This document shows positions 3,723-61,729 of a DNA stretch of 64,000 bases, in pieces; position 1 is the first letter of the stretch; each line of letters starts with the position of its first letter. The notes beneath the pieces are model-generated. The model saw nothing but the letters and a program-made list of their open reading frames with translations, did no database searches and had not been told where the DNA came from. Source of the stretch: Thermoguttaceae bacterium (GTDB lineage: Bacteria; Planctomycetota; Planctomycetia; Pirellulales; Thermoguttaceae); contig JAUMVK010000011.1 of assembly GCA_030530205.1 (NCBI GenBank), positions 24,887-88,886 on the forward strand. The letters run 5' to 3'. Made by a program: the position numbers and the translations under genes.

Positions 3723-3961
3723 TGTTGTTCCCTTTCTTTTGATGTTGGCCTCATAAAATTCTCAGCGACATCCACAGTACCGGTAAATTTATTATAATTC
3801 AAGAAAAAAACTTTGTCAAGGGATCGGGGATGAGAAGTCCTCCAAAGAAATTTCGGATTCTTTTTTTGTACCCCCTTGACAGGCCAAATATTATCGATTA
3901 AACTACAATTAATACAGTTTACCTACCCTTCCTGATTCTACCTTTTTTGAAGGTCCCGCCT

Positions 3962-5479
3962 ATGAATAGTCAGAGATTTACTGTCCCATTTCTTGTTTTG
4001 TGTTTCGTTTTGTCCTCGTGTTTCGTCTGTTCGGCCGCGGATCTGTTCGTCGGCGCAGCGAACTGCAGCATCACGCCCGACCGCCCGATCCTGCTCTCCG
4101 GCCAGTTTTACCGCCGGATCAGCAACGGGGTCCAGATCCCCATCGAGGCAAACGTCGTAGCGCTCGAAAGCCGCGAGGGAGACCAGAGCGTCGAGTCGGT
4201 CGTCATCGTGAGCACCGACCTGGTCTATAACCATCCGAATCTTCAGAAGGCTCTGGTGCCGGAGATCGCGCGGACCGTCCCTGATTTTAACGTTTCGCAA
4301 CTGGTTCTGACTTCGACCCACACGCACGCCAGCGCGGTGATGGACGACAAACAGTTCGAGATCCCGGAGGAGGGAAACGTGATGAAGCCCTCCGAGTACA
4401 TCGCCTGGGTTTGTCCCATCATCGCCCAGACGGTCAAGCAGGCTTGGGATTCCCGCAAAAAGGGGAGTTTCTCGTACGGTCTTGATTTCGCCGTCATCGG
4501 GTATAACCGTCGGGCGGTCTATTCAAACGGCGCGGCTGTGATGTACGGCCACACGGACAAAGACAATTTCCGCTCTATCGAAGGGATGGAAGACCGTGAC
4601 GTGAACTCGATGTTCTTCTGGGACGCGGACGGGAAATTGCTCGCCATGCTCCTGAACGTCTCGTGCCCCTCGCAGGAGGTGGAAGGGATCTCGCAGATTT
4701 CCAGCGATTACTGGGGTGTCGCGCGGAGGCTTCTCCGCAAGGATTTTGAGGACGAAAACCTTCCAATCGTCTGCTCGTGCGGTGCGGCAGGGGATCTTTC
4801 TCCGCACGTGCGTTACGCCGCCAAAGCCGTTTCCCGAATGGACTCCCTGCGTGGTGTTACGCGGCTTCAGGAGCTTGGCCGGCGTCTGGCGGTCGCGGTC
4901 GAAAGCACCTACAAGACAGTTCAAAACGACCGTTACGACCAGCCGATCCTGCGCTACAAAACGACCTGGCTGACGCTTCCGATGCGCATCCCGACCGCGG
5001 AGGAGTACGAGCTGTGCCGCAAGGAATACGAGAACCTGCTCAAAAACGATCCGAAAAACGGGCGGATCGGCTGGAACAAGAGGATCATGAACCGTTACGA
5101 GGACCTCGCGAAAAACCCGCATCCGACGTACGAGACACCGATCAGCGTTTTGCGTCTGGGTGACACTGTTTTCTGCACGAACCAGTTTGAGCTTTACACG
5201 GACTTCTCGATCCAGATCAAGGCGCGGTCCAAAGCGGTCCAGACGTTCGTCTCGCAGATCTCCGCCAGCGCCGGCAAACCGGACGAACAGAATCTCGTGG
5301 ACGGCAAGCCGTTCCCGTGGACCTTCCCGTTGCGGGCGGGGACGTATTTACCCTCCGAGCGGGCCAAACAGGGCGGCGGCTACGGCGCGATCATCCAGTC
5401 TAACACGGTAGGTCCCGAAGGCGGACAAATCATTGTAGAGGAAACACTAAAATTAATCGAGGAAGTTTTTAACGAATGA
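3962..5479 (+). CDS. Exported neutral-ceramidase-like N-terminal-domain protein
   Basis: ATG at 3962 followed by a signal peptide. Paralogous to the C-terminal two-thirds of 8930..11155 (ITPDRP..L.GQ.Y.RIS.G, THTH, NVSCPSQE, CGAAGD.SPH, CTNQFELY blocks). The family call is made by eye. Confidence 0.5.
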   Translation: MNSQRFTVPFLVLCFVLSSCFVCSAADLFVGAANCSITPDRPILLSGQFYRRISNGVQIPIEANVVALESREGDQSVESVVIVSTDLVYNHPNLQKALVPEIARTVPDFNVSQLVLTSTHTHASAVMDDKQFEIPEEGNVMKPSEYIAWVCPIIAQTVKQAWDSRKKGSFSYGLDFAVIGYNRRAVYSNGAAVMYGHTDKDNFRSIEGMEDRDVNSMFFWDADGKLLAMLLNVSCPSQEVEGISQISSDYWGVARRLLRKDFEDENLPIVCSCGAAGDLSPHVRYAAKAVSRMDSLRGVTRLQELGRRLAVAVESTYKTVQNDRYDQPILRYKTTWLTLPMRIPTAEEYELCRKEYENLLKNDPKNGRIGWNKRIMNRYEDLAKNPHPTYETPISVLRLGDTVFCTNQFELYTDFSIQIKARSKAVQTFVSQISASAGKPDEQNLVDGKPFPWTFPLRAGTYLPSERAKQGGGYGAIIQSNTVGPEGGQIIVEETLKLIEEVFNE

Positions 5480-12015: not shown

Positions 12016-12164
12016 CAGTCTTTCATTCAGTTGTGCGGGAAAAACCTCATTTGAGAGATTTTTCCTGTACGACTTCAAAAACCTTTGATTATGTAGTCTG
12101 ACATTATAATTAAAATCTCCGAATACATTACTACATCCTTTCGATCTGATAATTGTTGATTGGA

Positions 12165-12265
12165 CCTGGAAATGTCTGTTATACAGTATTGACGAATTCC
12201 TGCTTGTGGTATAATTCAAATGCGGACATGGTTCTTCCTCGTGTATATGGTTTGCTGTTTTTTTT
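12165..12265. repeat. Left inverted repeat of the CARF-nuclease cassette
   Basis: The core 12208..12265 is the reverse complement of 13905..13962 with 4 mismatches in 58. Weaker similarity extends outward to about 12165. Confidence 0.85.
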
Positions 12266-12566
12266 ACATTATACACTGAACCTGTCCGCGTTTTAATTAT
12301 TTTTCCGGTACGCGGTTGCCGGATGAACTCCTTTTTTTAGGTCACTGGGAATTTTTGGGGAAAATCTTGTGAATTTATCTGGCCGACTCCTTGAAGGTTT
12401 TCATCCAATCGATTATACTGGATTTTTGTGGAATTTTAAACTTTATCCGTCTTTTTGAGAATTAAGAACACTTTTTCGTTATATTATATGGAAGGGCTTA
12501 CGTCACCTATGTGGCTGCCATTTGATTTTTGACCGTCCAACCTGATTTTTCCTGGAAAGGATCCCG

Positions 12567-13802
12567 ATGAGCACGCTGATTTGTCTTTTGTCCGGACAGC
12601 CGGTTCCCAATTTGATGTCCTGCGCCGCGTTGCATCCAGACAGGATCGTTCTGGTTCAAACATTCAGAATGAAGGGCAAGAATGTTGCCGACAGGTTCCA
12701 GAACGCTCTGAAGAAAATGGGAATTCTGGTAGATACTGAAGTCGTTGATGTGGAGCCGGGACAGGATAACCATTTTTCATTCCTCAAAGATTATTTTCGC
12801 AGTGCATTGCTCGAAGCGTATTCAGGGGACACTTTTTTGCTGAACCTGACCGGGGGGACCAAGCCGATGAGTATCGCTTTGTACGAGACATTCCTTACTC
12901 ATCCGGGAGTGAAATTCTATTACTTTGATTTTGATTCTCCCTGCGAGATCATGGATTTCATCGGGGGCGGGAGCTCGGATGTTGGGCAGATCCCGCTCGA
13001 GGCGTTTCTGGCTGGGTACGGCTTCAAGACCGTCAAATCGATGAAACACATCGAGGCCGCAGAGAACGCCGCGCTCGAACGAGCTCAAACGACGAGGTTT
13101 CTCGCGTCCTGCTGCAATGACCCCGGCTTCGGAATTTGGAAAAAATCCGAAGATGATGAGGAGGAAAAAGCAAGTCGGGCGTGGCTTGTGGAGGCCATGC
13201 GACACAAGACCCCTTCCACCTTGAAGGAAGGTCTGCTGCATCCCTCTGATCCGAAAATTTCCCGGGCGTTAGCCGACTGCTTCCACCTGGAGCAAAACGC
13301 GGACGGCACGTTGAGCGGGACTGTCAACAAATACGATGTCAAGTATCTTGACGGCGGCTGGCTCGAAGAGTTCATCTGGCTCACATTGCATCATTACGAA
13401 AGGAAATATGAACTTGGCGACCTGCATTTGGGCCAGGTGATTCAAAAGGAAGGTTCCAAGACATCCAATGAGCAGGGTCAGGTAATCGAAAAGAGACCCC
13501 CACAAAATGAGGTGGATGTTTCCTTTATGCGCAATAACACCTTCCACGTGTGGGAATGCAAGACCGATTTTCAGGAAAAATTGCCGCTTTACCTGTACAA
13601 ACTCTACGCGGTGCTGAAAGAACTGGAGGCACTTGGTACACGATCTTCCCTGATCTCCAATTGCTCGATAATCACGACGGATGAGAGCAAAGAGCGCGCC
13701 AAACTTCACTCTACGAAGCTGATCGACGCGGAATCGATTCACAATCTGGCGATCGATCCCGAAAAAGAACTTGAAAAGATATTCAATCCCTCAAGATCCT
13801 GA
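12567..13802 (+). CDS. CARF-domain + PD-(D/E)xK nuclease effector (Card1/Can2-like, DUF1887 type)
   Basis: N-terminal LLSGQPVPNL and LNLTGGTKPMS CARF signatures. C-terminal EVDVSF...VWECKT is a D...ExK nuclease motif. RBS GGAAAGGA lies upstream of the ATG. Confidence 0.8.
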   Translation: MSTLICLLSGQPVPNLMSCAALHPDRIVLVQTFRMKGKNVADRFQNALKKMGILVDTEVVDVEPGQDNHFSFLKDYFRSALLEAYSGDTFLLNLTGGTKPMSIALYETFLTHPGVKFYYFDFDSPCEIMDFIGGGSSDVGQIPLEAFLAGYGFKTVKSMKHIEAAENAALERAQTTRFLASCCNDPGFGIWKKSEDDEEEKASRAWLVEAMRHKTPSTLKEGLLHPSDPKISRALADCFHLEQNADGTLSGTVNKYDVKYLDGGWLEEFIWLTLHHYERKYELGDLHLGQVIQKEGSKTSNEQGQVIEKRPPQNEVDVSFMRNNTFHVWECKTDFQEKLPLYLYKLYAVLKELEALGTRSSLISNCSIITTDESKERAKLHSTKLIDAESIHNLAIDPEKELEKIFNPSRS

Positions 13803-13904
13803 GATTTATGAGGACAAGATTGAAATTACATGCCAATAATGGTTCATCCAGTAACCGCGCACCTGGAAATAATTAAAGATGTGGACAAGTTCAGTCTGTA
13901 ATTC

Positions 13905-14005
13905 AAAAAAAACAGCAAACCATATACACGACGAGGAACAATGTCTGCATTTGAATTATACCCCTGTCAAGGTTTTATCAATGCCTGGCCACTGACATTT
14001 CCCAA
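13905..14005. repeat. Right inverted repeat of the CARF-nuclease cassette
   Basis: See the left repeat. Core at 13905..13962, with a degenerate extension to about 14005. Confidence 0.85.
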
Positions 14006-14034
14006 AAAAGACTACAGAATCATAATCTTTGGTA

Positions 14035-14173
14035 TTCTGAGGACCGATTCACTTTATTGTCCTTTGTGCGCCTTGAAAAATATTTGTCAGGTCTATGATT
14101 TTCGTGATGGAGAATACTTTAGGCTAAAAATCCTGGGAATCAAAAGGTGCCTGTACATACTTGTCGGATGAAC
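14035..14173 (+). mobile_element. ISL3-family transposase 3' remnant plus IS end (copy A)
   Basis: Translation ...YDFRDGEYFRLKILGIKRCLYILVG matches the ISL3 transposase C-terminus. The DNA is homologous in inverted orientation to 22631..22775. The IS terminus is GGTTCATCCGACAAG (reverse complement). Confidence 0.7.
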
Positions 14174-14196
14174 CCTTTTTCTTAGCCCACATTCCG

Positions 14197-14239
14197 CCGA
14201 TCGTGAAAAGGGAACCACCGCTCTTATTTTCACGATTGA
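14197..14239. repeat. REP-like palindrome (CCGATCGTG...CACGAT)
   Basis: CCGATCGTGAAAAGGGAACC...TTTTCACGATTG, almost identical to the unit at 61730. Confidence 0.75.
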
Positions 14240-14363
14240 GCACAAACAAGCATGGAGATTATCAGAAAATTTTGCCACTTCCCATTGCAAAAAAGAAAAA
14301 AGTTTGATAGAATGCATCTTTGTTCACAGAACTCTACTAATTTTCATTTTCAAGAGGCAAAGT

Positions 14364-15572
14364 ATGAAAAAAATCCCGGTCATTTTAACCATCTTATTTC
14401 TTTGTACCTTACTTGTTTCGTGTCATAAGGCCGGAGATGTGCGCACTTGGAGTTATGGTAGCTACACTGTCGAAGGCGAGTTTGTCGAACTGGCAGAAAA
14501 TGGAACGACCGTTTGTATTCGTAAAAAAGATGGGAATATCGTGAACATCCCGCTGTCAAAACTCTCTCAAGCTGATCAGGATTATGTAAAAGATTCTGAT
14601 CGTCCTATTGAGGGGGAACCTGCGACGTTAATGCTTCCTAATGCGCCACATGCGGGAGACCGTGTGGTTTTGAAGGTGGATAACGTAGAATTTGCCTTCC
14701 GTTGGTGTCCTCCGGGGAAGTTCGTAATGGGAAGCCCCGAGAGCGAGCCTGGCCGGCGCAGTACTGAAAAGCCTCATCTGGTTCAGTTGTCGAAAGGTTT
14801 CTGGATGCTGGAAACAGAAGTGACGCAAGCCCAGTGGAAGGTTGTCATGTGTACGAGTCTGGAAGAACAGGCCCAAAAAATGCTCAACGACGACACGCTT
14901 TATAAGTTTTCCTCAGGAGAGAAAACTCTTCGGGACTATTTCGGTTTCAAACAAAATGAAACGAGCCGCACGATCCACGGCAAGGGTGATACATACCCGA
15001 TTTACTATGTAAACTGGCACGAGAGTATGGAATTTTGTCGTCGTTTAAGCTCATACCTGAATCTGTGTGTCCAGCTTCCAACGGAGGCGCAGTGGGAGTA
15101 CGCTTGCCGAGCTGGCAGCACGATGGCACTTCCGAACGGGCCGATCAAGATCAAAGGGAAATGCGACGCTCCGGCACTTGATCCGATTGCGTGGTACGGC
15201 GGAAATAGCAGTCAAGGGTTCGTGGGGACAAGCCCGTGGAACTCCAGCAGCTGGTCGGAGACCCAGTACCCCGGCGGCCCTTGTGGAGCGCACCCGGTGG
15301 GCAAAAAGGACGCGAATGCCTGGGGCCTTTATGATATGTTGGGAAACGTGTGGGAATGGTGTTACGATTACTATGATGCAGCTTATTACGTCAGGTCTCC
15401 ATTGAGCGACCCGAAAAACACAACGGTTTCTACAGGCCGCGTGGATCGTGGCGGAAGCTGGTACGACCACGCTGAGTACTGCCGCTCGGCGTACCGCGGC
15501 GAGAATGCCCCTGACTTCCGGGATGACCTCCTCGGCTTCCGCGTCCTTTTAGTTCCCGGTCAAGAGAAATAG
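14364..15572 (+). CDS. Exported SHD1-like + FGE (SUMF1) domain protein
   Basis: Lipoprotein-like signal. W.YGSYTVEGEFVEL..NG..V.IRK.DG..V.IPL.KLS..D..YV is an SLA1-homology/SH3-like module. RWCPPG.F.MGS, NAWGLYDM.GNVWEWC and RGGSW FGE blocks follow. A TTGCAA-17-TAGAAT promoter-like site is upstream. Confidence 0.8.
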   Translation: MKKIPVILTILFLCTLLVSCHKAGDVRTWSYGSYTVEGEFVELAENGTTVCIRKKDGNIVNIPLSKLSQADQDYVKDSDRPIEGEPATLMLPNAPHAGDRVVLKVDNVEFAFRWCPPGKFVMGSPESEPGRRSTEKPHLVQLSKGFWMLETEVTQAQWKVVMCTSLEEQAQKMLNDDTLYKFSSGEKTLRDYFGFKQNETSRTIHGKGDTYPIYYVNWHESMEFCRRLSSYLNLCVQLPTEAQWEYACRAGSTMALPNGPIKIKGKCDAPALDPIAWYGGNSSQGFVGTSPWNSSSWSETQYPGGPCGAHPVGKKDANAWGLYDMLGNVWEWCYDYYDAAYYVRSPLSDPKNTTVSTGRVDRGGSWYDHAEYCRSAYRGENAPDFRDDLLGFRVLLVPGQEK

Positions 15573-15596
15573 ACAGGCAACATTACCCCCCCCCTC

Positions 15597-15636
15597 GCCG
15601 ATCGTGAAGAGAGAAGGCTCTCTTTACACGATCGGC
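15597..15636. repeat. REP-like palindrome, possibly a terminator
   Basis: GCCGATCGTGAAGAGAGAAGGCTCTCTTTACACGATCGGC lies immediately after the FGE gene stop. Confidence 0.75.
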
Positions 15637-15733
15637 AGGCAGTGAAACGGGCGAAATTTTCTGCGTTTCCTGAACAAAAATGTGAGAATTAGCAGTTTTT
15701 TTATAGGTAGCCATCGTTTTTGTTGTTTATGGC

Positions 15734-17281
15734 TCAACCTTCGATCTCGCCGCGGGCACGGCGGGTGAGGTAATCTTTTGTCACTTTCCAGACGACAGGC
15801 GAAAGCAGGACAAGCGCCACGAGGTTCGGGAACGCCATAAGGCCGTTGAAAGTATCGGCAATCCCCCAAACGACTGAAACGGTCAGGTAAGGGCCAATGG
15901 CGACTAAGAGAACGTAGAGCATACGATACATCTTGATGAGCCATTGCCGGTTTGAACCTACGAGATATTCAAGGCATTTCTCGGAGTAGTAGTCCCAGCC
16001 AAGAATCGTCGTGAACGCGAAGAACGTAAGCGCGATCATCAGGAAGAACGACGCGATCGTTGCAGAGTGTGGACCGATAAACGCAAGTCCACAGCTGAAT
16101 GCCTCGATGGTAATGTCAACCCCCTTGAGTCCAAGCGATGGTTCCCACGTACCCGTGACGACAATTACAAGACCTGTCATCGAACAGACGATGATCGTGT
16201 CGATGAACGTCCCCGTCATGCAGACAAGGCCCTGGCGCGCCGGCTCGTTCGTCTTTGCCGCGGCTGCCGCGATCGGGGCGGAGCCAAGTCCCGCTTCGTT
16301 CGAGAAGATTCCTCGCGCAATACCCTTCTGCATCGCGATGAAGATCGTGCCAACCATACCGCCAGTAAAAGCCGCAGGGTTAAACGCGGCACGAACGATG
16401 AGATCGATCGCCGGTAAAATCTTTGAAATGTTGCCGAAAAGGATGATCAAACAAATAAGGACATAGAACAGCGCCATGAACGGGATGATCATCATCGATA
16501 CGCTTGCAATACGTTTTAGCCCGCCAATAACGACGAGAGCGGTACAAATAGTGACAAGCGCGCCGGCTATGATTATGGAGAGGGAATACGTCGTGCCGAA
16601 TATTTGGATACCAGTCGCAAGGTCGTTCGGATTAAAATTCGGGTCGAAGAAACGCTGGGTCGCCGAGGTGATACCGTGGACCTGCGTGATCGTTCCGATA
16701 CCGAGAATACCGGCAACTACTCCGAAAAACGCGAAAAGGACGGCGAGCCACTTCCAGTTCTGAATGCCAAATACACCTTTCAGTCCCTTCTCGATATAAT
16801 AGAACGGACCGCCCAGGACCCGGCCGTCGGGTGTGAATTCGCGGTACTTGACTGCAAGCAGGCCTTCGGCGTACTTCGTTGCCATACCGAAGAAAGCGGC
16901 AACCTCCATCCAGAACAAAGCGCCGGGACCGCCCGTACCGATGGCCGTCGCGACGCCGACGATGTTCCCGGTGCCGATCGTCGCAGAGAGAGCGGTACAA
17001 AGCGCACCAAACGCGGAAACATCGCCCCGGGTTCCCTCCTCGGTGTGAAACATGTAACGAAAAGCATTTCTCAGGTTCAGGAGGTGAAGGAACCGCAGCA
17101 TGCACGTAAGGAGGATCCCTGTAAACAGGATCGTGATGATGAGCGGCAAACCCCAGATGAAATTGTCTGCCTTGTCAACCAGTGTCGTTAGTGAGGCAAG
17201 CCAGTCATTCGAGGTCTCAACCGTTTTCGTGACCGCGATTGGAAGCGCTGTCGCAGCAACATTATTTGTCATCTGATCCAC
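15734..17281 (-). CDS. Alanine/glycine:cation symporter (AGCS family)
   Basis: 515-aa polytopic membrane protein. GDVSAFGALCTALSATIGTGNIVGVA and SNEAGLGSAPIAAAAAKT blocks are typical of sodium:alanine symporters. Confidence 0.9.
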   Translation of the reverse strand: MDQMTNNVAATALPIAVTKTVETSNDWLASLTTLVDKADNFIWGLPLIITILFTGILLTCMLRFLHLLNLRNAFRYMFHTEEGTRGDVSAFGALCTALSATIGTGNIVGVATAIGTGGPGALFWMEVAAFFGMATKYAEGLLAVKYREFTPDGRVLGGPFYYIEKGLKGVFGIQNWKWLAVLFAFFGVVAGILGIGTITQVHGITSATQRFFDPNFNPNDLATGIQIFGTTYSLSIIIAGALVTICTALVVIGGLKRIASVSMMIIPFMALFYVLICLIILFGNISKILPAIDLIVRAAFNPAAFTGGMVGTIFIAMQKGIARGIFSNEAGLGSAPIAAAAAKTNEPARQGLVCMTGTFIDTIIVCSMTGLVIVVTGTWEPSLGLKGVDITIEAFSCGLAFIGPHSATIASFFLMIALTFFAFTTILGWDYYSEKCLEYLVGSNRQWLIKMYRMLYVLLVAIGPYLTVSVVWGIADTFNGLMAFPNLVALVLLSPVVWKVTKDYLTRRARGEIEG

Positions 17282-17396
17282 CTTTTCTTTTTACATATTT
17301 TCTCCGCGCCAGTATTAAATGACCGGTTTTTATACTTCAAGGCCGCTTAATGCTCACCACGTGCCATTTTGGGAGAATGATTCGGCCAATTGCGGA

Positions 17397-18575
17397 TCAG
17401 TTGTCAAGCATCTGTTTGCAAATTTTGCTGCATTCCCAAAGCATTCTCGGCAGGTGGAAGCACCCCTTGAAGATGTTCCCCTTTTGCGTTGAGGAGATGG
17501 TGCCGTCGCGGTGGAGGTAGCCGAACCAGTCGCCGTACTCGCGGTCCGTAAAGTGCTCAAACGCCCAGTCGTGGACCTGCTTGTGCATGTCGGCGTACTT
17601 TTCATCGCCGGTAAGCTGGCACGCCAGCAGCGTCGCGATGATCGTTTCATTGTGGTTCCACCAGAACTTCATGTCGTGCCAGTACTCGACGGACGGTTTG
17701 TCGTACACGTCGCGGAAATAGAGCATCCCGCCGTACTCTTTGTCCCAGCCGCGCTCCCACATCCAGTCGAGAATGTCGAGGCCGGTCTGGATGTAGTCCT
17801 GCCGGTTCCGCCGTTTTCCTTCGTCCATGATGAACCACGCGCCTTCAATGGCGTGCCCCGGGTTGAGCGTCCGCCCCTCGCACGAGTCCACGATGTCGCC
17901 GTTCGGCGCGACGCACTCCATGACGCACCGAATCTCCGGTTTCATAAAGTACTTCTGGATTTTCTCGATGCACTCGTCGATCTTCGCGTCGGCGCCCTCC
18001 AGCTGGATGGAATCCCGAAGCTGCTGGATCGTCGCGATGAGTATCGCGTAGTAGCCCAGCCCGATCATGGGGCGGACATCGGTGAACTTGGGCGGGTTCG
18101 GCACGTGGTTGGCGAAAATGTTGTAGCACTTGAGCGCCAGTTCCTTCGCGTGCTCGGAGCCGTCCGCCTTGGCCAGCTCGCCGAAGGAGATCGCCCCGAA
18201 CGACTCGCTGAACGCGTAGCGGCGTTTGCGGATCGGGCGGCCGTCGCGGGTGAGCTGGAAGAACATCCGCCCGTCCTCGTCGAAGGCGTATTTCTCGACG
18301 AATTCGAGCGTCTGCCGGCACTCTTCGAGCCAGACGGGGTTTTTCGCCGACGTCTCGCAGTTGTTGTACAGATGCCCCATCACCCAGGCGAAACGGCCCT
18401 GCTGCCAGACGCCCTTGTCGGTGTCGAAGAGGTTGCCCTGCTGGTCCACGCAGGTCATGATCCCGCCCTGTTCGTGGTCCACGGCATGGTTGAGCCAGAA
18501 TGGAATGGAGTCGTTAAACAGCGTGTTGGTGTAAAGCTGATACAGTTCGTTGATTTGATCTTTTGTATAAGTCAT
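17397..18575 (-). CDS. N-acylglucosamine 2-epimerase (AGE family)
   Basis: 392 aa. (alpha/alpha)6-barrel AGE-family blocks (FWL.H..D...GG, W.QGR, HA.E..WF, WWNHNE). Sits next to nanA. Confidence 0.85.
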   Translation of the reverse strand: MTYTKDQINELYQLYTNTLFNDSIPFWLNHAVDHEQGGIMTCVDQQGNLFDTDKGVWQQGRFAWVMGHLYNNCETSAKNPVWLEECRQTLEFVEKYAFDEDGRMFFQLTRDGRPIRKRRYAFSESFGAISFGELAKADGSEHAKELALKCYNIFANHVPNPPKFTDVRPMIGLGYYAILIATIQQLRDSIQLEGADAKIDECIEKIQKYFMKPEIRCVMECVAPNGDIVDSCEGRTLNPGHAIEGAWFIMDEGKRRNRQDYIQTGLDILDWMWERGWDKEYGGMLYFRDVYDKPSVEYWHDMKFWWNHNETIIATLLACQLTGDEKYADMHKQVHDWAFEHFTDREYGDWFGYLHRDGTISSTQKGNIFKGCFHLPRMLWECSKICKQMLDN

Positions 18576-18588
18576 GGCGATTCATTAA

Positions 18589-18743
18589 GTTAGGAGTTAG
18601 GAGCGAGGAGTTAGGAGTTGGAAATGGAAGGCGGTAATGAAGGCCGCAAGGCCGGAATTACGCGCCTTTCAAGGGTTGAAGTCTTTCTGCAAGCCGCGTT
18701 GCGCGAAGCGTCAACTTCTAACTCCTAACTCCTAACTCCTCAC
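18589..18743. repeat. Long-armed intergenic hairpin H3 (31-bp arms, 4 mismatches)
   Basis: Arms at 18589..18619 and 18713..18743, built of GTTAGGAG units. The loop shares exact 15-, 17- and 14-nt blocks (reverse complement) with 6856..6870, 1345..1361 and 1364..1377. Confidence 0.85.
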
Positions 18744-18749
18744 TATTTT

Positions 18750-19646
18750 TTACGGTTCGATCACTCCGAGCGCTTCGATCCGCGCCAGAATGTCCTTCTT
18801 GCCTTCCGGGGAGATGGACTTGAGCGGGAGACGGACGTCGCCCAGATCCAGACCGTGCGCGGCCATCATGACCTTGCCGGCCGCCACGCCGCCGTACTGG
18901 ACGAGAATGTCCACCACCTGGCAGACTTTCCGCATGGAGGCCTGCACCGCGTCGAAATCGCCGGCTTTCAGGTCACGGACGATTTTCAGGTACGTCGGGG
19001 CCATGTAGTTGTACGTGCTGCCGATTGCTGATTTCGCACCCAAGGCCACCGCGCCGGCAAAGAATTCATCGACGCCGAACGTGATGTCGTACTTGCCGTC
19101 CAGTGCCGCCATGCAGTTCTGGTACTCGTACAGGTCCACGCTGTTGAACTTGATTCCTGCCAGCTGCGGCATACGCTTGTCTGCGCATTCGAGGAACTTG
19201 ACCATCGGCAGGCTGATCCCGGACATGCCGGTGTGGTAGTAGTAGAACGGGAGGTCCGGCGCGGTTTTGACCGCTTCGATGCAGTAATCGACGAGCGTCT
19301 CGACGTTGCCCGGCTTGAAGTAGTTGGCGGGCACGACGCTCACCGCATCGCAGCCGACTTTCTGGGCGTGGGCCGCCAGTTCCTGAACGTCTGGCAGAGC
19401 CAGCGCGCCAACGTGGGCGATGATCGTCAGTTTCCCCTTGGCGGCTTTGACCCACTCGGCCATGACGGTTTTGCGTTCCTCGACGGAGCAGGAAATTCCC
19501 TCGCCGGTCGATCCGCAAATATAGACGCCCATGACGCCCTGACGCTGAAGCATCTCGGCCTGTGCGCCGATGCATCCGTAATTGACGCTTCCGTCGGCGT
19601 TGAAGGCCGTATGCGTTGCCGCGATAAGTCCCGATAATTTTTTCAT
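18750..19646 (-). CDS. nanA: N-acetylneuraminate lyase (DapA/NAL family)
   Basis: GVYICGSTGEG and the Schiff-base Lys region (GIKFNS) are typical of the NAL/DHDPS family. RBS AGGAG lies 8 nt upstream of the ATG at 19646. Sits in a sialic-acid gene context. Confidence 0.85.
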   Translation of the reverse strand: MKKLSGLIAATHTAFNADGSVNYGCIGAQAEMLQRQGVMGVYICGSTGEGISCSVEERKTVMAEWVKAAKGKLTIIAHVGALALPDVQELAAHAQKVGCDAVSVVPANYFKPGNVETLVDYCIEAVKTAPDLPFYYYHTGMSGISLPMVKFLECADKRMPQLAGIKFNSVDLYEYQNCMAALDGKYDITFGVDEFFAGAVALGAKSAIGSTYNYMAPTYLKIVRDLKAGDFDAVQASMRKVCQVVDILVQYGGVAAGKVMMAAHGLDLGDVRLPLKSISPEGKKDILARIEALGVIEP

Positions 19647-19676
19647 ATTGATTACTCCTTTCAAGTGGTTAAAATT

Positions 19677-22424
19677 CTAATCGACCTCTTCCGGCACGTA
19701 TTTCCACGTCAGACCGTCCAGCTGATCCATCGTCGGCCGGCCGGTCAAGAGGGAAACGACGTACCCGACCACCACGCACGCCAGCAGTCCCGCGACGCTG
19801 TAAAGCAGGAAGTGCGGCTTGACCGGCACGACGTTCGTATAGATCAAAACGATGTTGACGATGTAGGACGCCGCCAGCCCGGCAACCGCGCCCGCCCCGT
19901 TGATCCTCGGGATGAAAAGGCCCATGACGAAGAGCCCCGCCAGCCCGCTGGTCAGGATCCCGATGACTTTCTGGAACTCCATAAACAGGGATTTGATGTC
20001 GATCGTCGCGATGAGCAAAGCGAAGGCGATCGCGGCCGTCCCGAAGATGAACGACGCCCATTTGGCGACCTTGAACGCCTTGACCTTGTCGTTGCTGATG
20101 AACCGGCAGTAGAAGTCGGACATAAACGCCGTGGACGCCGAGTTGAAGTTCGCGGAGAGCGTGGACATTGCCGCAGCAAAAATGGCGGCAATGAGCAGGC
20201 CCGAAACGCCCGTCGGCAGGCTCGAAACGATGTACGTCGGGAAGACCGCATCGTTCTGGTACATCGACCAGTCAAACGAGCCGGCGTTCGATTTGTAGTA
20301 CGCGTAGAGCGTCGTCCCGATGAAGTAGAACAGCGTGCAGCTCATCACCGACAGGATCCCGTTGAACCAGATCGAACGGGCGGCCGCCTTTTCGTCTTTG
20401 GTGGTCATGTACTTTTGAACGATCGTTTGGTCGGACGTGTAGGAACTGAGGTTGATGGCGATCCCGCCGATAAACGTCACCCAAAAGACGGGCTCCACCA
20501 GGGACCAGCTAAAGTCGAACGCGTGAAATTTCTGATTGGCCATCGCCAGCTGGAACACGCCGGACACGCCGCCGTCGGTTCCCATGATCATCATCGTAAC
20601 GGCAATCAGGGCGCCGCCGACCAGAACCACCGCCTGGATGAATTCCGACCAGATTACCGCGCTCACGCCGCCGATGGTCGAGTAGATCACCGTCACCGCC
20701 CCCACCAGGACGATGGAGACGAAGAGGTTCATGCCGACGATCACCGAAAGGGCCAGCGCTGGCAGGTACACGACGATCGCCGAACGCACGATCATGAAAA
20801 TGATAAACGCCGCGGAAGCGAAAACTCGGGAGAAAACGTTAAAACGCTTTTCCAGGTACTCGTAAGCCGATGTGATCTTCAGCCTCCGATAGAACGGCAA
20901 ATACAGGTAAACGACGATCGGAGCGAGAATGAAGATCGCGAACGTCATCGGGTACATCCACCACGAAGAACTGAACGTCATGGCGGGGATCGTCATGTAC
21001 GTAATGGACGAGAGCATCGCGGCAAAGATCGCCACGCCGTTGACCCACCACGGAATCCGGCCGCCGCCTTTGCAGTAGTCGTCGATCCCCTTGTTTTTCC
21101 GCATGAAGAAGTACCCAAAGGGAAGCATCAGGCCCAGGTACACTAAAAAGACGGTCCAGTTTACGGTCCCGAACCTCCGGTCAAGCGCCAGATTGAGGAC
21201 CTGCAGACCCGCCCAGCGCTGCGCCGGTTTGACTTCCCCGCCGACGACCATGAGCTGATTGCTGAAGTTCATCACCGCCGCGCCGCAGACGGGCGTGGGG
21301 ATCGTCACGTTCCCCTTTTCGAAAAACGTTCCTTCTTCGATGACCGTATGGTAAACGAACATCCGTTTTTCCCAGTTGAACGACTCAGGCGTCCGGGCGT
21401 AGTACTGGGTCAAATATTCGTCTTTCTCAGGCCCGGAAAGCGTGTTGAGCTTTTCGTTCACTTCCGTCCAGACGTCGGCGTTGACGCCGCCGACGAGGAG
21501 GATCGACTCGGAGCCAACGACGACTGCCGTGGAACCGATCGAGCAAAAGCGCTCGCCCTTGTATTCGAGGTCCGCCAGGCGGGTCCATTTGACCTTCAGC
21601 GTCCCCGCGTCGTCCCGATCCGGCTGCATTTTCCAGACGTCGTACAGAGGTTTTCCGTTCGCGCCCTCCGCTTTGTCGTATCCGCCAAAAACGAACAGGG
21701 AAGCGTTGTCGTGGATCGTATCAAGATTGGAAATCCGAACCGCGCCGGCCGGCTGGGAACGCACGACGCCGTTTTGCACGTCGTCCGGAATGCCGTCCAG
21801 CTCGACCCATTTCCCCCCATCCAGAGCAAACAGTTTCCCGCTGGCGAAAACGTAAGGGACCTTCCCGATCGCACCACCGCAGCCCATCGAACACGGGGCG
21901 GGCAGATCCGGCCCGGACGTCAGCTCGACCGAATCGGTCTGGGCGTTGAAAACGGCTTTCCAGACTTTGACCGACTCGCCGTTTTCATTCGCGCCGCCGC
22001 AGAGCAGCAAATACGAATCGAACGCCACCGTGACTCCTTCCGCGACCGGCTCAGGAAGTCCCTCGGGCGATTCCTTGCCATCGACAAAAACCCGCACCGG
22101 TTTCGCTTTCCAGACGGTTTTCCCGTCCGCGGTTTCCTGAACGAGCCGGGAAACGGTCCGGGCGTAACACTTTTTTCCGCCGTCCGCGACAGGAGCGTCA
22201 AAATACGAACCGCCAAAGGTCAGCGCGACCTTCTGAAGGTCACCCGGGGCGGCGTTCGTCTTGCCAACGACCCCGAAAAATGGCCGTGCGACCGCTTGAG
22301 GCAGAACATCCGACTGTGTTACCCATTGCAAACTGGCGTTGTTCTCAAGTCCCTTCGCTGAAAATGAGGTAAAAAATAGAATCGCGACAATAGCCGCAGT
22401 GTAAATGATGTGTCTAATGTTCAT
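19677..22424 (-). CDS. Fusion: Kelch-repeat NanM-like mutarotase + sodium:solute symporter (SSS)
   Basis: Signal/TM, then about 400 aa of Kelch-type beta-propeller repeats (VFGG, LLVGG, MVVGGE). About 500 aa follow with SSS-family TM blocks (GGRIPWWVNG, TIGGVSAVIWSEFIQ). Confidence 0.8.
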   Translation of the reverse strand: MNIRHIIYTAAIVAILFFTSFSAKGLENNASLQWVTQSDVLPQAVARPFFGVVGKTNAAPGDLQKVALTFGGSYFDAPVADGGKKCYARTVSRLVQETADGKTVWKAKPVRVFVDGKESPEGLPEPVAEGVTVAFDSYLLLCGGANENGESVKVWKAVFNAQTDSVELTSGPDLPAPCSMGCGGAIGKVPYVFASGKLFALDGGKWVELDGIPDDVQNGVVRSQPAGAVRISNLDTIHDNASLFVFGGYDKAEGANGKPLYDVWKMQPDRDDAGTLKVKWTRLADLEYKGERFCSIGSTAVVVGSESILLVGGVNADVWTEVNEKLNTLSGPEKDEYLTQYYARTPESFNWEKRMFVYHTVIEEGTFFEKGNVTIPTPVCGAAVMNFSNQLMVVGGEVKPAQRWAGLQVLNLALDRRFGTVNWTVFLVYLGLMLPFGYFFMRKNKGIDDYCKGGGRIPWWVNGVAIFAAMLSSITYMTIPAMTFSSSWWMYPMTFAIFILAPIVVYLYLPFYRRLKITSAYEYLEKRFNVFSRVFASAAFIIFMIVRSAIVVYLPALALSVIVGMNLFVSIVLVGAVTVIYSTIGGVSAVIWSEFIQAVVLVGGALIAVTMMIMGTDGGVSGVFQLAMANQKFHAFDFSWSLVEPVFWVTFIGGIAINLSSYTSDQTIVQKYMTTKDEKAAARSIWFNGILSVMSCTLFYFIGTTLYAYYKSNAGSFDWSMYQNDAVFPTYIVSSLPTGVSGLLIAAIFAAAMSTLSANFNSASTAFMSDFYCRFISNDKVKAFKVAKWASFIFGTAAIAFALLIATIDIKSLFMEFQKVIGILTSGLAGLFVMGLFIPRINGAGAVAGLAASYIVNIVLIYTNVVPVKPHFLLYSVAGLLACVVVGYVVSLLTGRPTMDQLDGLTWKYVPEEVD

Positions 22425-22630
22425 TGCATCGTCGTTTTCAAATGCGGAAATGATCGTAAGGAACGTTACAGGCACCGTCAAACATTTCTCTAATATCTCT
22501 TTTTATACTAACATACTATTTTACACTACCTTCAAAACTACACAAGAGGGGCCACTACAATAATTAAGGAAGTTCACGAAAACTTACGAGGCTTTTTCAT
22601 TTTAACCACCCAATAACCGTTTGTAATTCC

Positions 22631-22775
22631 GGTTCATCCGACAAGTGCGTACCGACACCTTTTAATCCCCAGGATTTTTAGCTTGAAGTATTCTCCATCG
22701 CGAAAACCATAAGCCTGACGTTTCATCGTCTTGATCTTGTTGTTCAGTCCTTCCAATGGACCGGTGGAGGAAGAA
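22631..22775 (-). mobile_element. ISL3-family transposase 3' remnant plus IS end (copy B)
   Basis: The minus-strand translation TGPLEGLNNKIKTMKRQAYGFRDGEYFKLKILGIKRCRYALVG is a typical ISL3 transposase C-terminus. The terminus GGTTCATCCGACAAG starts at 22631. Confidence 0.75.
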
Positions 22776-23227
22776 GAGAACCTGGAGGATGTTTTGGCTC
22801 GGGAGTGGCCCAAATCTCGTCGTAAAAGAAATTTCAGACCCTATCGCCGCAGATGGAAGCGGTAGTTTTTTTTGTGTTTTTTTTCAGAAAAGGCCAAGCC
22901 ATTGATCCGGTTTGGCCGCAACTTAAAACTCTGATATTTTAAGATTATTGTACGTGCCAACTCGCGTATCTAGGCCAGACACCAGCATTCTATAAAGCGT
23001 TTCTTTATTACTATGCCGTAATAAAGTTGGTGGAAGCCTGTGTTATGTCTACGAGTATAGCCTTTTATTGCCAAAGAAGAATCGGGGTTTGGTAGCATTC
23101 TCCTTATTTCTTTTTAACTTTCTGATTTTGGATTTACCTATATAGGTCAAGTGTAAGCGAAAAGTAGACACCAAATGACGAAAATATTACACTCAACTGT
23201 CTACTTTTCCCATTATTCATTGAAATT

Positions 23228-32850: not shown

Positions 32851-33090
32851 CGTACACCGATTGCACGGATTTGACAGGGTTATAACTCGATGAACTGCTT
32901 TTCTCCGATGTAGCCAAGGGTGTACAGGGTGCCTGGATTTGACAGGGTTACAGCGTATAAAAACCTTTATGCTGCTTGACAGTGACGGTGTACAGGGTGC
33001 CTGGATTTGACAGGGTTACAGCGCGGCCCCATCAATCGTGTTCCGCAGCTTTTCGGTGTACAGGGTGCCTGGATTTGACAGGGTTACAGC
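32851..33090. CRISPR. Orphan CRISPR mini-array: 4 x 36-bp repeats (first degenerate), 3 x 32-bp spacers
   Basis: Three identical copies of GGTGTACAGGGTGCCTGGATTTGACAGGGTTACAGC at 32919, 32987 and 33055. A degenerate copy CGTACACCGATTGCACGGATTTGACAGGGTTATAAC is at 32851. Spacers are unique and exactly 32 bp. No cas gene is in the window. Confidence 0.75.
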
Positions 33091-33196: not shown

Positions 33197-33334
33197 AGCT
33201 CAGCCATCTAAATTCGTCTAAAATCGACCGGTTTCGGGTCGATCTTTGAACCTGATTTTCTGCGAATCCGGACCGCCGATCGTGAAGGCCGGGGTGGTGT
33301 TTCCTTTCCACGACCGGCTGGGTGAAAATTCACG

Positions 33335-59596: not shown

Positions 59597-59690
59597 AACG
59601 AAAGAGAAACCATGATGAACAAACTGGTATTGGCCCTTATGTTTGCTGCGGGATGAACTGCGTCCAGAGGGATATGGGCGTCTTATGGTA

Positions 59691-61544: not shown

Positions 61545-61729
61545 AACTTCTCTCCATGATTTTTTTCTTTATTATACCTCGATTTTAAACTTTTTCAAGG
61601 GACTTTTTCGGAAAGTTTCAATTTTTTCAAGTGACTTTTGGGAGAAAGTGCAACTTTTTAGAGGGACTTTGCCACCCCATCTTCGCCGGTCAAGTTACAG
61701 GGACGACGCTTCTGGGATTCAGCGCACCC

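What the first reader, a model, noticed from the sequence alone, without database searches (positions are those of the whole stretch)
12165..14005. Stand-alone Card1/Can2-like CARF nuclease carried on a 1.8-kb cassette bounded by ~100-bp inverted repeats
**Seen in the sequence**
- 12208..12265 is the reverse complement of 13905..13962 with 4 mismatches in 58.
- Weaker similarity extends outward to about 12165 and 14005 (shared GGAAATGTC and ATTGA blocks).
- The only gene between the repeats is the CARF + PD-(D/E)xK effector.
- The left repeat contains a promoter-like TTGACG-15-TGgTATAAT site (12189..12215) pointing inward.
- The right repeat abuts the decayed 3' end of an ISL3 transposase.
- There is no transposase inside the cassette.

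**Inference**
- Three readings are possible: a non-autonomous (MITE-like) mobile cassette carrying a defence effector, an invertible or recombinogenic module, or long-range 5'/3' RNA pairing of the transcript.
- I am not aware of CARF effectors described on such IR-bounded cassettes.
Basis: partly seen in the sequence, partly recalled or inferred. Interest (0 to 1): 0.7.

Follow-up and report, generated by a model that had tools for sequence, protein, structure and literature searches.

The report
CARF nuclease gene between ISL3 remnants
The "inverted repeats" around this CRISPR-type signalling nuclease gene are the left ends of two decayed ISL3 insertion sequences whose tips point at the gene; related strains that lack the gene differ by a 1.7-kb gap ending exactly at one of those tips, so this is ordinary insertion-sequence-driven gain or loss of a defence gene, not a new kind of mobile cassette.

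Summary
The inverted repeat is real: 4 mismatches in 58, 85% over 122 nt (E=3e-33), and about 161 nt per arm. It also extends inward to 12328 and 13842.

Each arm is the left end of an ISL3-family insertion sequence. It carries the terminal repeat IRL (GGTTCATCCGGYAACCGCG...), the transposase promoter, an RBS/AUG-sequestering hairpin, and the first ~20 transposase codons (MSAFELYHKQGIRQYR...). Both IRL tips face the CARF gene.
- **Right copy (13842-14174):** a 333-bp internally deleted element with both terminal repeats.
- **Left copy (12168-12328):** a stub.

The gene is an intact Can2/Card1-type effector. Its cA4-contact and PD-(D/E)xK residues are conserved, and dN/dS is 0.3. Its homologues (47-66% identity) sit inside type III CRISPR operons.

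Three other assemblies of the same species lack window 12118-13840. That gap covers 54 nt, the left arm and the gene. It ends exactly at the right element's IRL tip, and the right arm is kept.

So the variable unit is not repeat-to-repeat. I found no target-site duplication, no inversion, and no second cargo-bearing copy. The best reading is an orphan Can2 gene embedded in ISL3 debris, lost or gained by IS-end-anchored rearrangement. Interest is modest.

The parts
12168..12328 (-). IS-a: stub of the left end of an ISL3-family IS, on the minus strand. It holds the IRL tip at 12328, the transposase promoter, the 5'UTR hairpin, an RBS (GAGGAAG), the ATG at 12231-12229, and about 20 codons (MSAFELYHKQ..., with a 1-nt frameshift).
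   Evidence: - The IRL-to-ATG distance is 97 nt, against 95 nt in the near-full-length ISL3 of L028.
- The peptide matches residues 1-16 of the full-length ISL3 transposase P0141 at 9/16, E=0.001.
- A third copy, L018 648-808, is 92% identical.
- Logan contigs break inside it, so it is multi-copy in those samples.
12304..12328 (-). IRL of IS-a. Read on the minus strand it is GTTCATCCGGCAACCGCGTACCGG. Its tip faces the CARF gene.
   Evidence: The same terminus, GG(T/C)TCATCCG..., is found at both ends of the L028 ISL3, at IS-b and IS-c, and at six other loci of a related metagenome. Similarity always stops at the tip.
12268..12296 (-). Transposase promoter-like site of IS-a: TTAAAA-17-TATAAT.
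   Evidence: Promoter scan, 10 of 12 positions. It lies inside the 5' arm of the hairpin.
12189..12215 (+). It is antisense to transposase codons about 6-14 and points out of the IS towards the CARF gene.
   Evidence: - The sequence is confirmed.
- It was not listed by the scan because the spacer is 15 nt.
- It is conserved in L018 with a 16-nt spacer, but it overlaps coding sequence, so conservation is not evidence of function.
12329..12566 (+). AT-rich leader of the CARF gene, lying outside both IS remnants. It carries a promoter-like site, TTGAAG-17-TATACT, at 12391-12419.
   Evidence: Promoter scan. It contains no credible ORF. It has no DNA similarity to the type III operons that hold the homologues.
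12567..13802 (+). Can2/Card1-type effector, 411 aa: an N-terminal CARF domain and a C-terminal PD-(D/E)xK nuclease.
   Evidence: - Pfam CARF_Card1 (4.9e-19) and Card1_endonuc (1.2e-15), both above the curated cut-off.
- PADLOC CARF4--CARF_PDDEXK, 2.8e-46.
- PDB Can2 7bdv 1.8e-13 and Card1 6wxw 5.3e-11.
- S9, T32, K99 and Y119 align with the Can2 cA4 contacts. E315/D317 and E330/K332 align with the nuclease motif.
- dN/dS against the L022 allele is 0.32.
13842..14174 (+). IS-b: an internally deleted (non-autonomous) ISL3 element of 333 bp. It has the IRL at 13842-13866 and the IRR at 14150-14174. Its 76-codon ORF, 13941-14171, fuses the transposase N-terminus (MSAFELY...) in frame to the C-terminus (...FRDGEYFRLKILGIKRCLYILVG*).
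   Evidence: - tblastn of the L028 transposase hits 14088-14168, E=5e-5.
- BLASTP of the ORF against the full-length P0266 aligns residues 366-406, E=1e-7.
- Both termini appear in the IR table.
- The element is present in both the CARF+ and CARF- alleles.
12118..13840 (.). The segment absent from the CARF-minus alleles, 1723 nt (the left breakpoint is ambiguous within 12115-12117). It comprises 54 nt of unknown origin, IS-a, the leader, the CARF gene and its 39-nt trailer.
   Evidence: L033, L034 and L036 are collinear with the window up to 12117 and then continue at 13841. The junction reads ...GACATTATAATTAAATTC|GGTTCATCC.
22631..22780 (-). IS-c: a C-terminal relic of an ISL3 transposase with its IRR tip at 22631. 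Together with the IRR of IS-b, it brackets the 8.4-kb sialic-acid/FGE segment 14175-22630.
   Evidence: - tblastn 22637-22765, 79% identity, E=4e-16.
- Translation ...GPLEGLNNKIKTMKRQAYGFRDGEYFKLKILGIKRCRYALVG*.
- Close relatives carry PF01610.

Best explanation
**What it is**
- The two arms are the left ends of two copies of one ISL3-family insertion sequence.
- They lie in opposite orientation, with their IRL tips at 12328 and 13842 facing a Can2/Card1 gene that sits outside both elements.
- The right copy, IS-b (13842-14174), is a complete non-autonomous deletion derivative with both terminal repeats. A full-length ISL3 elsewhere in the genome could in principle mobilise it.
- The left copy, IS-a, is a 161-nt stub.

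**Shown**
- The identity of the arms as IS left ends.
- The integrity of the Can2 gene.
- A population polymorphism in which 12118-13840 is present or absent and ends exactly at the IRL tip of IS-b.

**Inferred**
- The CARF-minus allele arose by IS-b-mediated adjacent deletion. In this event IS-b transposes within the same molecule, in deletion mode, into the AT-rich site at about 12115.
- The inward-facing-IRL arrangement came earlier, from one of three routes: a composite-type insertion, a duplicative inversion, or two separate insertions.
- The hairpin in each arm is the usual IS device that hides the transposase RBS and AUG in read-through transcripts.
- The outward promoter-like site may add transcription into the Can2 gene or make an antisense RNA.
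- The Can2 protein itself would act as a cA4-activated nuclease. It would need a cyclase, such as a type III Cas10, encoded outside this window.

**Likelihood**
- About 0.9 that the arms are ISL3 left ends.
- About 0.5 that the polymorphism is a deletion rather than an insertion.
For: **1. The arms end in an ISL3 terminus**
- L028 holds a near-complete ISL3 (Pfam Zn_ribbon_ISL3, HTH_Tnp_ISL3, DDE_Tnp_ISL3).
- Its IRL, GGCTCATCCG..., lies 95 nt upstream of ATG-MSTSLLYHGFGVRDYRYV. Its IRR is ...GTCGGATGAACC, with the stop codon inside it.
- In the arms the tip-to-ATG distance is 97 nt (left) and 99 nt (right).
- The encoded MSAFELYHKQGIRQYR matches residues 1-16 of the full-length ISL3 P0141 at 9/16, E=0.001.
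- Three full-length representatives start MSTSLLYH.FG.R.Y.

**2. The right arm is part of a deleted IS**
- Its ORF runs in frame into an ISL3 C-terminal relic and the IRR.

**3. The same tip recurs elsewhere**
- It occurs at 7 further places in related metagenome contigs. These include a 185-nt MITE with both IRs (L023) and a third 161-nt copy (L018). Similarity always ends at the tip.

**4. The left arm is multi-copy in the samples**
- Independent k-mer assemblies break 30 nt inside the left arm, from both sides.

**5. The minus-strand features fit an IS left end**
- Promoter TTAAAA-17-TATAAT.
- A hairpin covering the RBS and AUG: dG -32.5 kcal/mol, z -4.8.

**6. The empty alleles**
- L033, L034 and L036 lack 12118-13840 and share an identical junction at the IS-b IRL tip.
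- IS-b has no 8-bp duplication in either allele, as expected after an IS-end-anchored rearrangement.

**7. The insertion interrupts a catabolic cluster**
- The 2.3-kb insert sits within a sialic-acid/carbohydrate gene cluster.

**8. Literature**
- ISL3 elements are described as replicative, as preferring AT-rich sites, and as carrying outward promoters (PMC13216065, PMC11952509, PMC9330008).
Against: - No full-length ISL3 of this exact subfamily was recovered. The nearest full copy, L028, shares only the tip, the spacing and the N-terminal motif with the arms.
- The N-terminal match is short: 16 residues, E=0.001 in a single pairwise comparison.
- The polarity of the indel is unresolved. CARF+ and CARF- alleles are each found in strains 1-2% apart, with no outgroup.
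- The left arm, the right arm and the L018 copy all end at the same inner point (...GACATTTCC). Independent truncation does not explain this.
- No significant trace of a right half was found next to IS-a.
- The arms are 15-24% diverged, so a duplicative inversion, if it happened, is old.
- The source genome was not in the reference genome collection, so copy number and the presence of a type III locus could not be checked.
Confidence: 0.75

Rival explanations
1. This is a decayed composite transposon. Two inverted ISL3 (or ISL3-MITE) copies captured the Can2 gene from a type III locus and inserted as one unit between the TIM-barrel and FGE genes. The left IS later lost its outer part. This is compatible with the best explanation as the origin of the CARF+ arrangement.
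For: - The inverted IS copies, with the same end facing the cargo, are arranged as in Tn10/Tn5-type composites.
- The insert interrupts a catabolic gene cluster.
- The homologues sit in type III operons, and DNA similarity to them stops at the gene borders.
- MITE pairs are known to mobilise intervening DNA (PMC4133298).
Against: - There is no 8-bp duplication at the outer borders.
- The left outer IR is missing and could not be detected.
- No second copy of the unit exists in another context.
- The empty alleles retain IS-b, so they are not clean pre-insertion sites.
- The arms differ by 15%.
Confidence: 0.3
2. A non-autonomous, MITE-like cassette is delimited by the ~100-160-bp inverted repeats, and these act as its transposition ends, carrying the CARF effector as cargo.
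For: - A long, significant inverted repeat flanks a single gene.
- The repeat family is multi-copy.
- The gene is present in some strains and absent in others.
Against: - The transposase-recognised tips (IRL) are at the inner ends of the arms and point at the gene.
- The outer ends, ...GACATTTCC, match the IRL at only 11 of 23 positions by my own count of the sequence.
- The natural indel runs from 54 nt outside the left arm to the inner tip of the right arm and leaves the right arm behind.
- There is no target duplication.
- No homologous CARF gene (L003-L012) has these repeats.
Confidence: 0.05
3. This is an invertible, or recombination-prone, module. Recombination between the arms flips the CARF gene relative to flanking promoters.
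For: Inverted repeats of more than 100 nt at 85% identity can support homologous inversion. Promoter-like sites in both arms point inward.
Against: - All CARF+ assemblies that span the gene and the right arm (window, L001, L002, L022) have the same orientation. The right arm is assembled without a branch.
- The arms show no sign of homogenisation: they are 15% diverged, yet each is about 99% conserved between strains.
- The flanking genes are a TIM-barrel enzyme and an FGE-sulfatase protein, not recombinases.
- The gene has its own promoter-like site inside the segment.
Confidence: 0.03
4. The repeats act at the RNA level. The 5' and 3' ends of a long CARF transcript would pair, or an antisense transcript from the right arm would control CARF expression.
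For: - The arms would form a ~120-bp duplex if both were transcribed on one RNA.
- Each arm folds stably on its own: dG -40.9, z -5.7 for the plus strand of the left arm.
Against: - The structure is fully accounted for as the IS 5'UTR hairpin.
- In the right arm three stem pairs are broken by non-compensatory changes (GCGGAC/GTCCGC in the left arm against GCAGAC/GTCCAC in the right; my own inspection of the sequence). Its fold is weak, z -2.0.
- No Rfam family matched.
- The best promoter match for the gene lies downstream of the left arm.
Confidence: 0.05

Closest known systems
ISL3-family insertion sequences and their internally deleted (MITE-like) derivatives
   Same: - Terminal repeats starting GG(T/C)TC....
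- A DDE_Tnp_ISL3 C-terminus with the stop codon inside the IRR.
- The N-terminal motif MS..LYH..G.R.YR.
- AT-rich insertion sites.
- A promoter and hairpin at the left end.
- In-frame N+C deletion derivatives also occur elsewhere, for example P0146 at 115 aa.
   Different: - No intact transposase is present in the window.
- No 8-bp target duplication is seen at any of the three remnants.
- A 161-nt left-end stub recurs with the same inner boundary at three sites, which is not a described ISL3 derivative.
Composite transposons with inverted IS copies (Tn10/Tn5 type), and MITE-pair mosaics such as Tn3-derived TIMEs (PMC4133298)
   Same: A single cargo gene lies between two inverted copies of one IS, with the same end of each copy facing the cargo.
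   Different: - The outer end of the left copy is missing.
- There is no flanking duplication.
- There is no evidence that the unit has moved as a whole.
- The observed variant removes only one IS copy plus the cargo.
IS-mediated adjacent deletion and duplicative inversion, i.e. intramolecular replicative transposition as established for IS1, Tn3, Mu and IS26 (my own knowledge of the Shapiro-type model)
   Same: - One deletion endpoint is exactly the IS tip.
- The IS is retained.
- No target duplication is left.
- Two inverted IS copies with identical ends facing the intervening segment is the inversion product. This applies both to CARF (two IRLs) and to the 8.4-kb segment 14175-22630 (two IRRs).
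   Different: - The direction of the event is not demonstrated.
- IS-b is non-autonomous, so a transposase in trans must be assumed.
- The IS copies are now 15% diverged.
Can2/Card1 cA4-activated CARF-PD-(D/E)xK nucleases, and the orphan DUF1887 protein VC1899 (PMC7969007)
   Same: - The same two Pfam domains.
- Conserved cA4 contacts (S9, T32, K99, Y119) and nuclease residues.
- Like VC1899, it is not next to a type III system.
   Different: - VC1899 has lost the cA4-binding residues, according to PMC7969007. This protein keeps them and is under purifying selection, so it looks like a working effector separated from its cyclase.
- Its close homologues are all inside type III operons.
Left-end control devices of IS10/IS50: RNA-OUT antisense RNA and RBS sequestration in read-through transcripts. 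Also outward promoters of ISL3 elements (IS1411 cited in PMC9330008; E. faecium ISL3 in PMC13216065).
   Same: - A hairpin pairs the region upstream of the transposase promoter with the RBS and AUG.
- An outward-facing promoter-like site lies antisense to the first transposase codons.
   Different: This rests purely on sequence. No transcript ends are known, and the outward site has a 15-nt spacer.

Membership tests
ISL3-family insertion sequence (the arms, IS-b, IS-c) | DDE transposase of the ISL3 type (Pfam PF01610) | tested here: met
   - Only relics are present.
- C-terminal relics: 22637-22765 (79% identity, E=4e-16) and 14088-14168 (E=5e-5) against the L028 ISL3.
- Relatives at 80-84% identity carry PF01610.
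- N-terminal codons in the arms match full-length members.
ISL3-family insertion sequence (the arms, IS-b, IS-c) | Imperfect terminal inverted repeats at both ends | tested here: met
   - IS-b has IRL GGTTCATCCAGTAACCGCGCACC and IRR (reverse complement) GGTTCATCCGACAAGTATGTACA.
- The same tips are found on the near-complete ISL3 of L028.
- IS-a has only an IRL, and IS-c only an IRR.
ISL3-family insertion sequence (the arms, IS-b, IS-c) | 8-bp target-site duplication | tested here: not met
   - IS-b flanks are CAATAATG / CTTTTTCT in the CARF+ allele and TTAAATTC / CTTTTTCT in the CARF- allele.
- This is expected if the flanks were rearranged after insertion, but it is not positive evidence.
MITE (non-autonomous IS derivative) | Short, no transposase, both terminal repeats, several copies in the genome | tested here: inconclusive
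   - IS-b (333 bp) and L023 (about 185 bp) have both IRs.
- The 161-nt stub (left arm, L018) has only one recognisable IR.
- Copy number in the source genome could not be measured. Assembly breaks imply more than one copy.
Composite transposon | Two IS copies with intact outer ends flanking the cargo, and a target duplication around the whole unit | tested here: not met
   The left outer end is absent or undetectable. There is no duplication at 12016-12171 / 14175-14182.
Composite transposon | The same unit found in different genomic contexts | tested here: not met
   Identical or near-identical CARF genes occur only at this locus. More distant homologues have no ISL3 tips nearby.
Can2/Card1 (CARF + PD-(D/E)xK effector) | N-terminal CARF domain with cA4-contact residues | tested here: met
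   Pfam CARF_Card1, 69 bits against a cut-off of 24.6. S9, T32, K99 and Y119 align with Can2 S19, T42, K99 and Y118 (residues named in PMC7969007; positions).
Can2/Card1 (CARF + PD-(D/E)xK effector) | C-terminal PD-(D/E)xK nuclease with catalytic acidic and lysine residues | tested here: met
   Pfam Card1_endonuc, 57.7 bits against a cut-off of 26.4. NEVD (E315, D317) and ECK (E330, K332) align with NELD and ECK of Can2 and Card1.
Can2/Card1 (CARF + PD-(D/E)xK effector) | Activation by cA4 made by a type III CRISPR complex | not testable with these tools
   - No cas10 or RAMP gene is present in the 64-kb window.
- A mini CRISPR array and a type III-linked gene lie 18-19 kb away.
- The rest of the genome is not available.
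Invertible DNA switch | Both orientations present in the population, and a recombinase gene nearby | tested here: not met
   One orientation is seen in all assemblies that span the gene and the right arm. The neighbours are metabolic genes.

The most novel reading that the evidence does not exclude
ISL3 elements have physically uncoupled a working Can2 effector from its type III CRISPR locus. Other pieces of that locus, a mini-array and a conserved 377-aa neighbour gene, lie 18-19 kb away. The orphan effector is kept under purifying selection as a strain-variable accessory gene. Its sensor domain has been swapped by recombination, and it is switched on in trans by cA4 from a cyclase encoded elsewhere. 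This would be a natural example of IS-driven modular shuffling, gain and loss of CRISPR ancillary effectors within one population.
Probability: 0.25. Interest if true: 0.45.

Novelty: new member of a known kind. Interest (0 to 1): 0.3.

Why it matters
**As a scan result**
- It removes a false lead. A long inverted repeat around a defence gene turns out to be two facing IS left ends, not a new cassette architecture.
- It gives a recipe for recognising this case: an IR tip, a promoter, an RBS, and MS..LYH codons on the opposite strand.

**Biologically**
- It is a clean natural case of a CRISPR ancillary nuclease sitting apart from any type III genes.
- The gene is intact and under selection, and it is present in some strains and absent in others. 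The breakpoint is anchored on an IS tip.
- This fits the published suggestion that some type III loci activate effectors encoded elsewhere in the genome (PMC11229360).
- It points to insertion sequences as one route by which effectors are dispersed and lost.

Tried and rejected
**Looking for other copies of the arm**
- A scan of 185,579 reference genomes with a 19-mer from the arm core found only 4 hits, in unrelated archaea and Bacteroidota. About that number is expected by chance (my estimate), and neither arm of the source genome was recovered, so the source is not in the collection.
- Two viral-contig scans found nothing.
- nhmmer with a profile of the three units found no further copy in the window.

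**Structured RNA**
- Rfam at E<=10 gave only noise.
- I first considered the arm to be a small RNA gene or a promoter-terminator module. I dropped this once the opposite strand was read as IRL, promoter, RBS and transposase start.

**Protein searches**
- A search with the 76-aa right-arm ORF found only itself.
- A search with the ISL3 C-terminal relic returned mostly 40-77-aa fragments. I first took these for MITE ORFs, but they are C-terminal pieces called from an internal Met.

**A decayed right half of IS-a in 12016-12171**
- Local and global alignments to the IS-b and IS-c right ends, and to the IR consensus, were not significant (p 0.08-0.67). Two short matches to IS-a's own IRL-proximal sequence reached p 0.014-0.036, which does not survive correction for the six tests run.

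**Target duplications**
- Inspected at every IS boundary and at the indel borders. None was found.

**Polarity of the indel**
- Pairwise differences in the flanks showed no clade structure.

**Low GC as a mark of foreign origin**
- The gene is 50% GC and the window averages 51%. Only the intergenic and IS parts are AT-rich, so I did not use this argument.

**Remnants of the neighbouring type III genes next to the CARF gene**
- None was found by tblastn.
Full report
**1.
- 12208-12265 is the reverse complement of 13905-13962 with 4 mismatches in 58.
- The repeat finder reports arms 12168-12328 and 13842-14002, 161 nt at 76%.
- Gapped blastn gives 85% over 122 nt, E=3e-33. This is the only strong self-match of this region in the window.
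- The similarity extends inward as well as outward. Both arms stop at ...GGATGAAC, at 12328 and 13842.
- The gene between them, 12567-13802, is the only credible ORF.

**2. The gene**
- It has Pfam CARF_Card1 and Card1_endonuc, both well above the curated cut-offs.
- It matches PADLOC CARF4--CARF_PDDEXK at 2.8e-46, and Can2 (7bdv) and Card1 (6wxw) in the PDB.
- The four residues named in PMC7969007 as conserved cA4 contacts (Can2 S19, T42, K99, Y118) align with S9, T32, K99 and Y119 here.
- The nuclease motif residues E315/D317 and E330/K332 are also present.
- According to PMC7969007, the known orphan VC1899 has lost the cA4 contacts. This protein has not.
- The source is a Thermoguttaceae MAG.
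- The nearest homologues, at 66%, 58% and 47% identity, all sit inside type III CRISPR operons. Their neighbours include Csx3, Cas10, RAMPs, Cas1/2 and Cas6.
- DNA similarity to those loci starts 11 nt before the start codon and ends at the stop codon.
- No cas gene was found among the larger ORFs of the window.

**3. What the arms are**
- A metagenome scan with the inner-end motif found the syntenic locus in a related strain (L022). It is 97.6% identical over 11.6 kb and has both arms in the same order.
- The scan also found seven further copies of the motif at six other loci. One is a third full copy of the 161-nt unit, next to an unrelated small gene: L018, 92% to the left arm.
- In every copy, similarity ends right after GGATGAAC(C).
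- The same ending closes two ISL3 transposase C-terminal relics in the window. They are 14088-14168 (+) and 22637-22765 (-), with the stop codon inside the repeat.

Read on the opposite strand, each arm has these features in order:
- the tip GGTTCATCCGGYAACCGCGTACC;
- a TTAAAA-17-TATAAT promoter;
- GAGGAAG as an RBS;
- ATG TCC GCA TTT GAA TTA TAC..., encoding MSAFELYHKQGIRQYRVTDIS.

A near-complete ISL3 (L028) and other full-length members support this reading:
- L028 carries the Zn-ribbon, HTH and DDE_Tnp_ISL3 domains.
- It has the same kind of tip (GGCTCATCCG) 95 nt before ATG-MSTSLLYHGFGVRDYRYV. Its right tip...GTCGGATGAACC, comes straight after YALVG*.
- The tip-to-ATG distance is 97 and 99 nt in the arms.
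- Three full-length clade members start MSTSLLYH.FG.R.Y.
- The arm peptide matches residues 1-16 of one of them at 9/16, E=0.001.

In the right arm, the ORF 13941-14171 continues in frame into the C-terminal relic. So 13842-14174 is a 333-bp internally deleted ISL3 with both terminal repeats. The left arm is a left-end stub on the minus strand.

The hairpin in each arm pairs the region upstream of the transposase promoter with the RBS and AUG (dG -32.5, z -4.8 for the left arm). This is the usual way an IS blocks translation of read-through transcripts. That last point is inference from established IS10/IS50 biology.

Outward promoters are documented for ISL3 members (PMC9330008, PMC13216065). 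Function here is untested, and a better-spaced site (12391-12419) lies in the gene's own leader.

**4. Multi-copy status**
- Two independent k-mer assemblies of the gene start at window 12297, which is 30 nt before the tip.
- One of them ends 30 nt into the IS-c relic.
- Contigs carrying the left flanking gene end at about 12228 and 12195.
- This is the pattern expected where unique DNA meets a repeat present elsewhere in the sample.

**5. The empty site**
- I looked up the exact FGE protein downstream. This found three assemblies (L033, L034, L036, from at least three samples) with the same flanking genes at about 98% identity but no CARF gene.
- They are collinear with the window up to 12117 and resume at 13841.
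- The junction is identical in all three...GACATTATAATTAAATTC|GGTTCATCC.
- The missing 1723 nt are 54 nt of unknown origin, the left arm, the leader, the gene and its trailer.
- The right element, IS-b, is present in both alleles.
- One boundary is exactly the IRL tip of IS-b. The other is an AT-rich site 54 nt outside the left arm.
- IS-b has no 8-bp duplication in either allele.

This is the signature of an IS-end-anchored event. The most economical is an adjacent deletion, in which IS-b transposes within the same molecule in deletion mode, using a transposase supplied in trans. ISL3 elements are reported to be replicative and to prefer AT-rich DNA (PMC11952509, PMC13216065).

A simple insertion of the 1723 nt is less likely, because the segment has no recognisable ends and no duplication. 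Polarity could not be settled, because both alleles occur in strains 1-2% apart.

**6. Wider arrangement**
- The CARF segment is bracketed by two IRL tips.
- The next 8.4 kb, 14175-22630 (FGE and sialic-acid genes), is bracketed by two IRR tips (IS-b and IS-c).
- Each is the expected product of intramolecular replicative transposition in inversion mode. Each is also compatible with independent insertions or a composite transposon.
- The insert interrupts a carbohydrate/sialic-acid gene cluster that runs from the start of the window to about 22.5 kb.

**7.
- *IR-bounded mobile cassette.* This is contradicted by the orientation of the tips, by the indel boundaries, and by the absence of target duplications. 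It is also contradicted by the absence of the repeats around any homologous CARF gene.
- *Invertible module.* One orientation is seen in all CARF+ assemblies that span the gene and the right arm. The arms are 15% diverged yet each is about 99% conserved between strains. No recombinase gene is nearby.
- *RNA pairing.* This is untested and unnecessary. In the right arm the stem has three non-compensatory disruptions and folds weakly.

**8. What remains unexplained**
- The three 161-nt copies share the same inner boundary (...GACATTTCC).
- No significant right half could be found beside the left arm.
- DNA just outside several tips is similar and T-rich.

**9. Verdict**
This is a real repeat with an ordinary cause. 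The locus is an orphan but apparently functional Can2 gene embedded in ISL3 debris, and it is variably present in the population through an IS-tip-anchored rearrangement. It is a new example of known phenomena: IS remnants, adjacent deletion or composite-type capture, and orphan CARF effectors. It is of modest interest for how CRISPR ancillary effectors become separated from their loci.

Noticed in passing
window 32851-33090: A mini CRISPR array with four 36-nt repeats (GGTGTACAGGGTGCCTGGATTTGACAGGGTTACAGC; the first is degenerate), period 68, and three 32-nt spacers. No cas genes are nearby. Nearly the same repeat (GGTGTACCGAGTGCCTGGATT...ACAGGGTTACAGCC) forms the arrays of the type III loci L005-L011, which hold the 47%-identical Can2 homologue. 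The spacers have no match in the window or in the fetched loci.
   Followed up: partly
window 31472-32605 (-): A 377-aa ORF with no Pfam, PADLOC or NCBIfam hit. It is 45.5% identical (tblastn E=1e-60) to the uncharacterised 350-aa gene that lies between the Can2 gene and the CRISPR array/cas2-cas1 in loci L005-L011. Here it again sits next to the mini-array, so it may be an undescribed type III-associated gene.
   Followed up: partly
window 12567-13802 compared with L022: The CARF gene diverges in a mosaic pattern between two strains whose flanks differ by about 1%. dS is 0.29 in codons 1-120 (the CARF domain), 0.10 in codons 121-330 and 0 in codons 331-411. dN/dS is 0.19-0.37. This looks like a recombination tract that replaced the sensor domain with a diverged allele, under purifying selection.
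   Followed up: partly
window 14199-14245, 33268-33320, 59690-59900 and 61720-62160: A family of REP-like palindromic intergenic repeats, (G/C)CC(A/G)ATCGTGAAAAGG...variable...CACGATCGGC. About ten copies are clustered around the PDC-S01 ATPase gene, and single copies lie next to IS-b and next to the CRISPR mini-array.
   Followed up: no
window 22780-54300: A defence-island-like stretch that begins at the IS-c relic. It contains a phage-type PDDEXK fragment, DUF4417, a PP2C phosphatase, a VWA protein and a protein kinase in a row. It also holds a YhcG/DUF1016 nuclease, a UvrD-like helicase, SbcD-SbcC-like genes, and a DO-GTPase2 with GAP1-N2 genes. Further on are a PDC-S01 ATPase (60225-61544) and an HsdR fragment (62164-63924).
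   Followed up: partly
L018 1-650 (read on the minus strand): The third copy of the 161-nt ISL3 left-end stub also has its IRL tip facing a small AT-rich accessory ORF of about 82 aa, with its own RBS and terminator. Another TGGTATAAT promoter-like site follows. So the stub again sits at the edge of inserted low-GC DNA, next to a housekeeping gene (6-pyruvoyl-tetrahydropterin synthase-like).
   Followed up: no
L023 784-968; L017 343-430: L023 holds a MITE of about 185 nt with an IRL and an IRR of the same ISL3 clade and no coding remnant. L017 holds two tandem IRL tips 33 nt apart, beside an inverted ISL3 C-terminal relic. This clade has left many kinds of debris in these planctomycete genomes.
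   Followed up: partly
L024-L027, about 3590-4210: An ISL3 C-terminal relic (ORFs of 96, 44 and 68 aa) is conserved next to gyrB-dciA-dnaN in several Thermoguttaceae assemblies from different samples. It is therefore an old, fixed IS remnant beside the replication-origin gene cluster.
   Followed up: no
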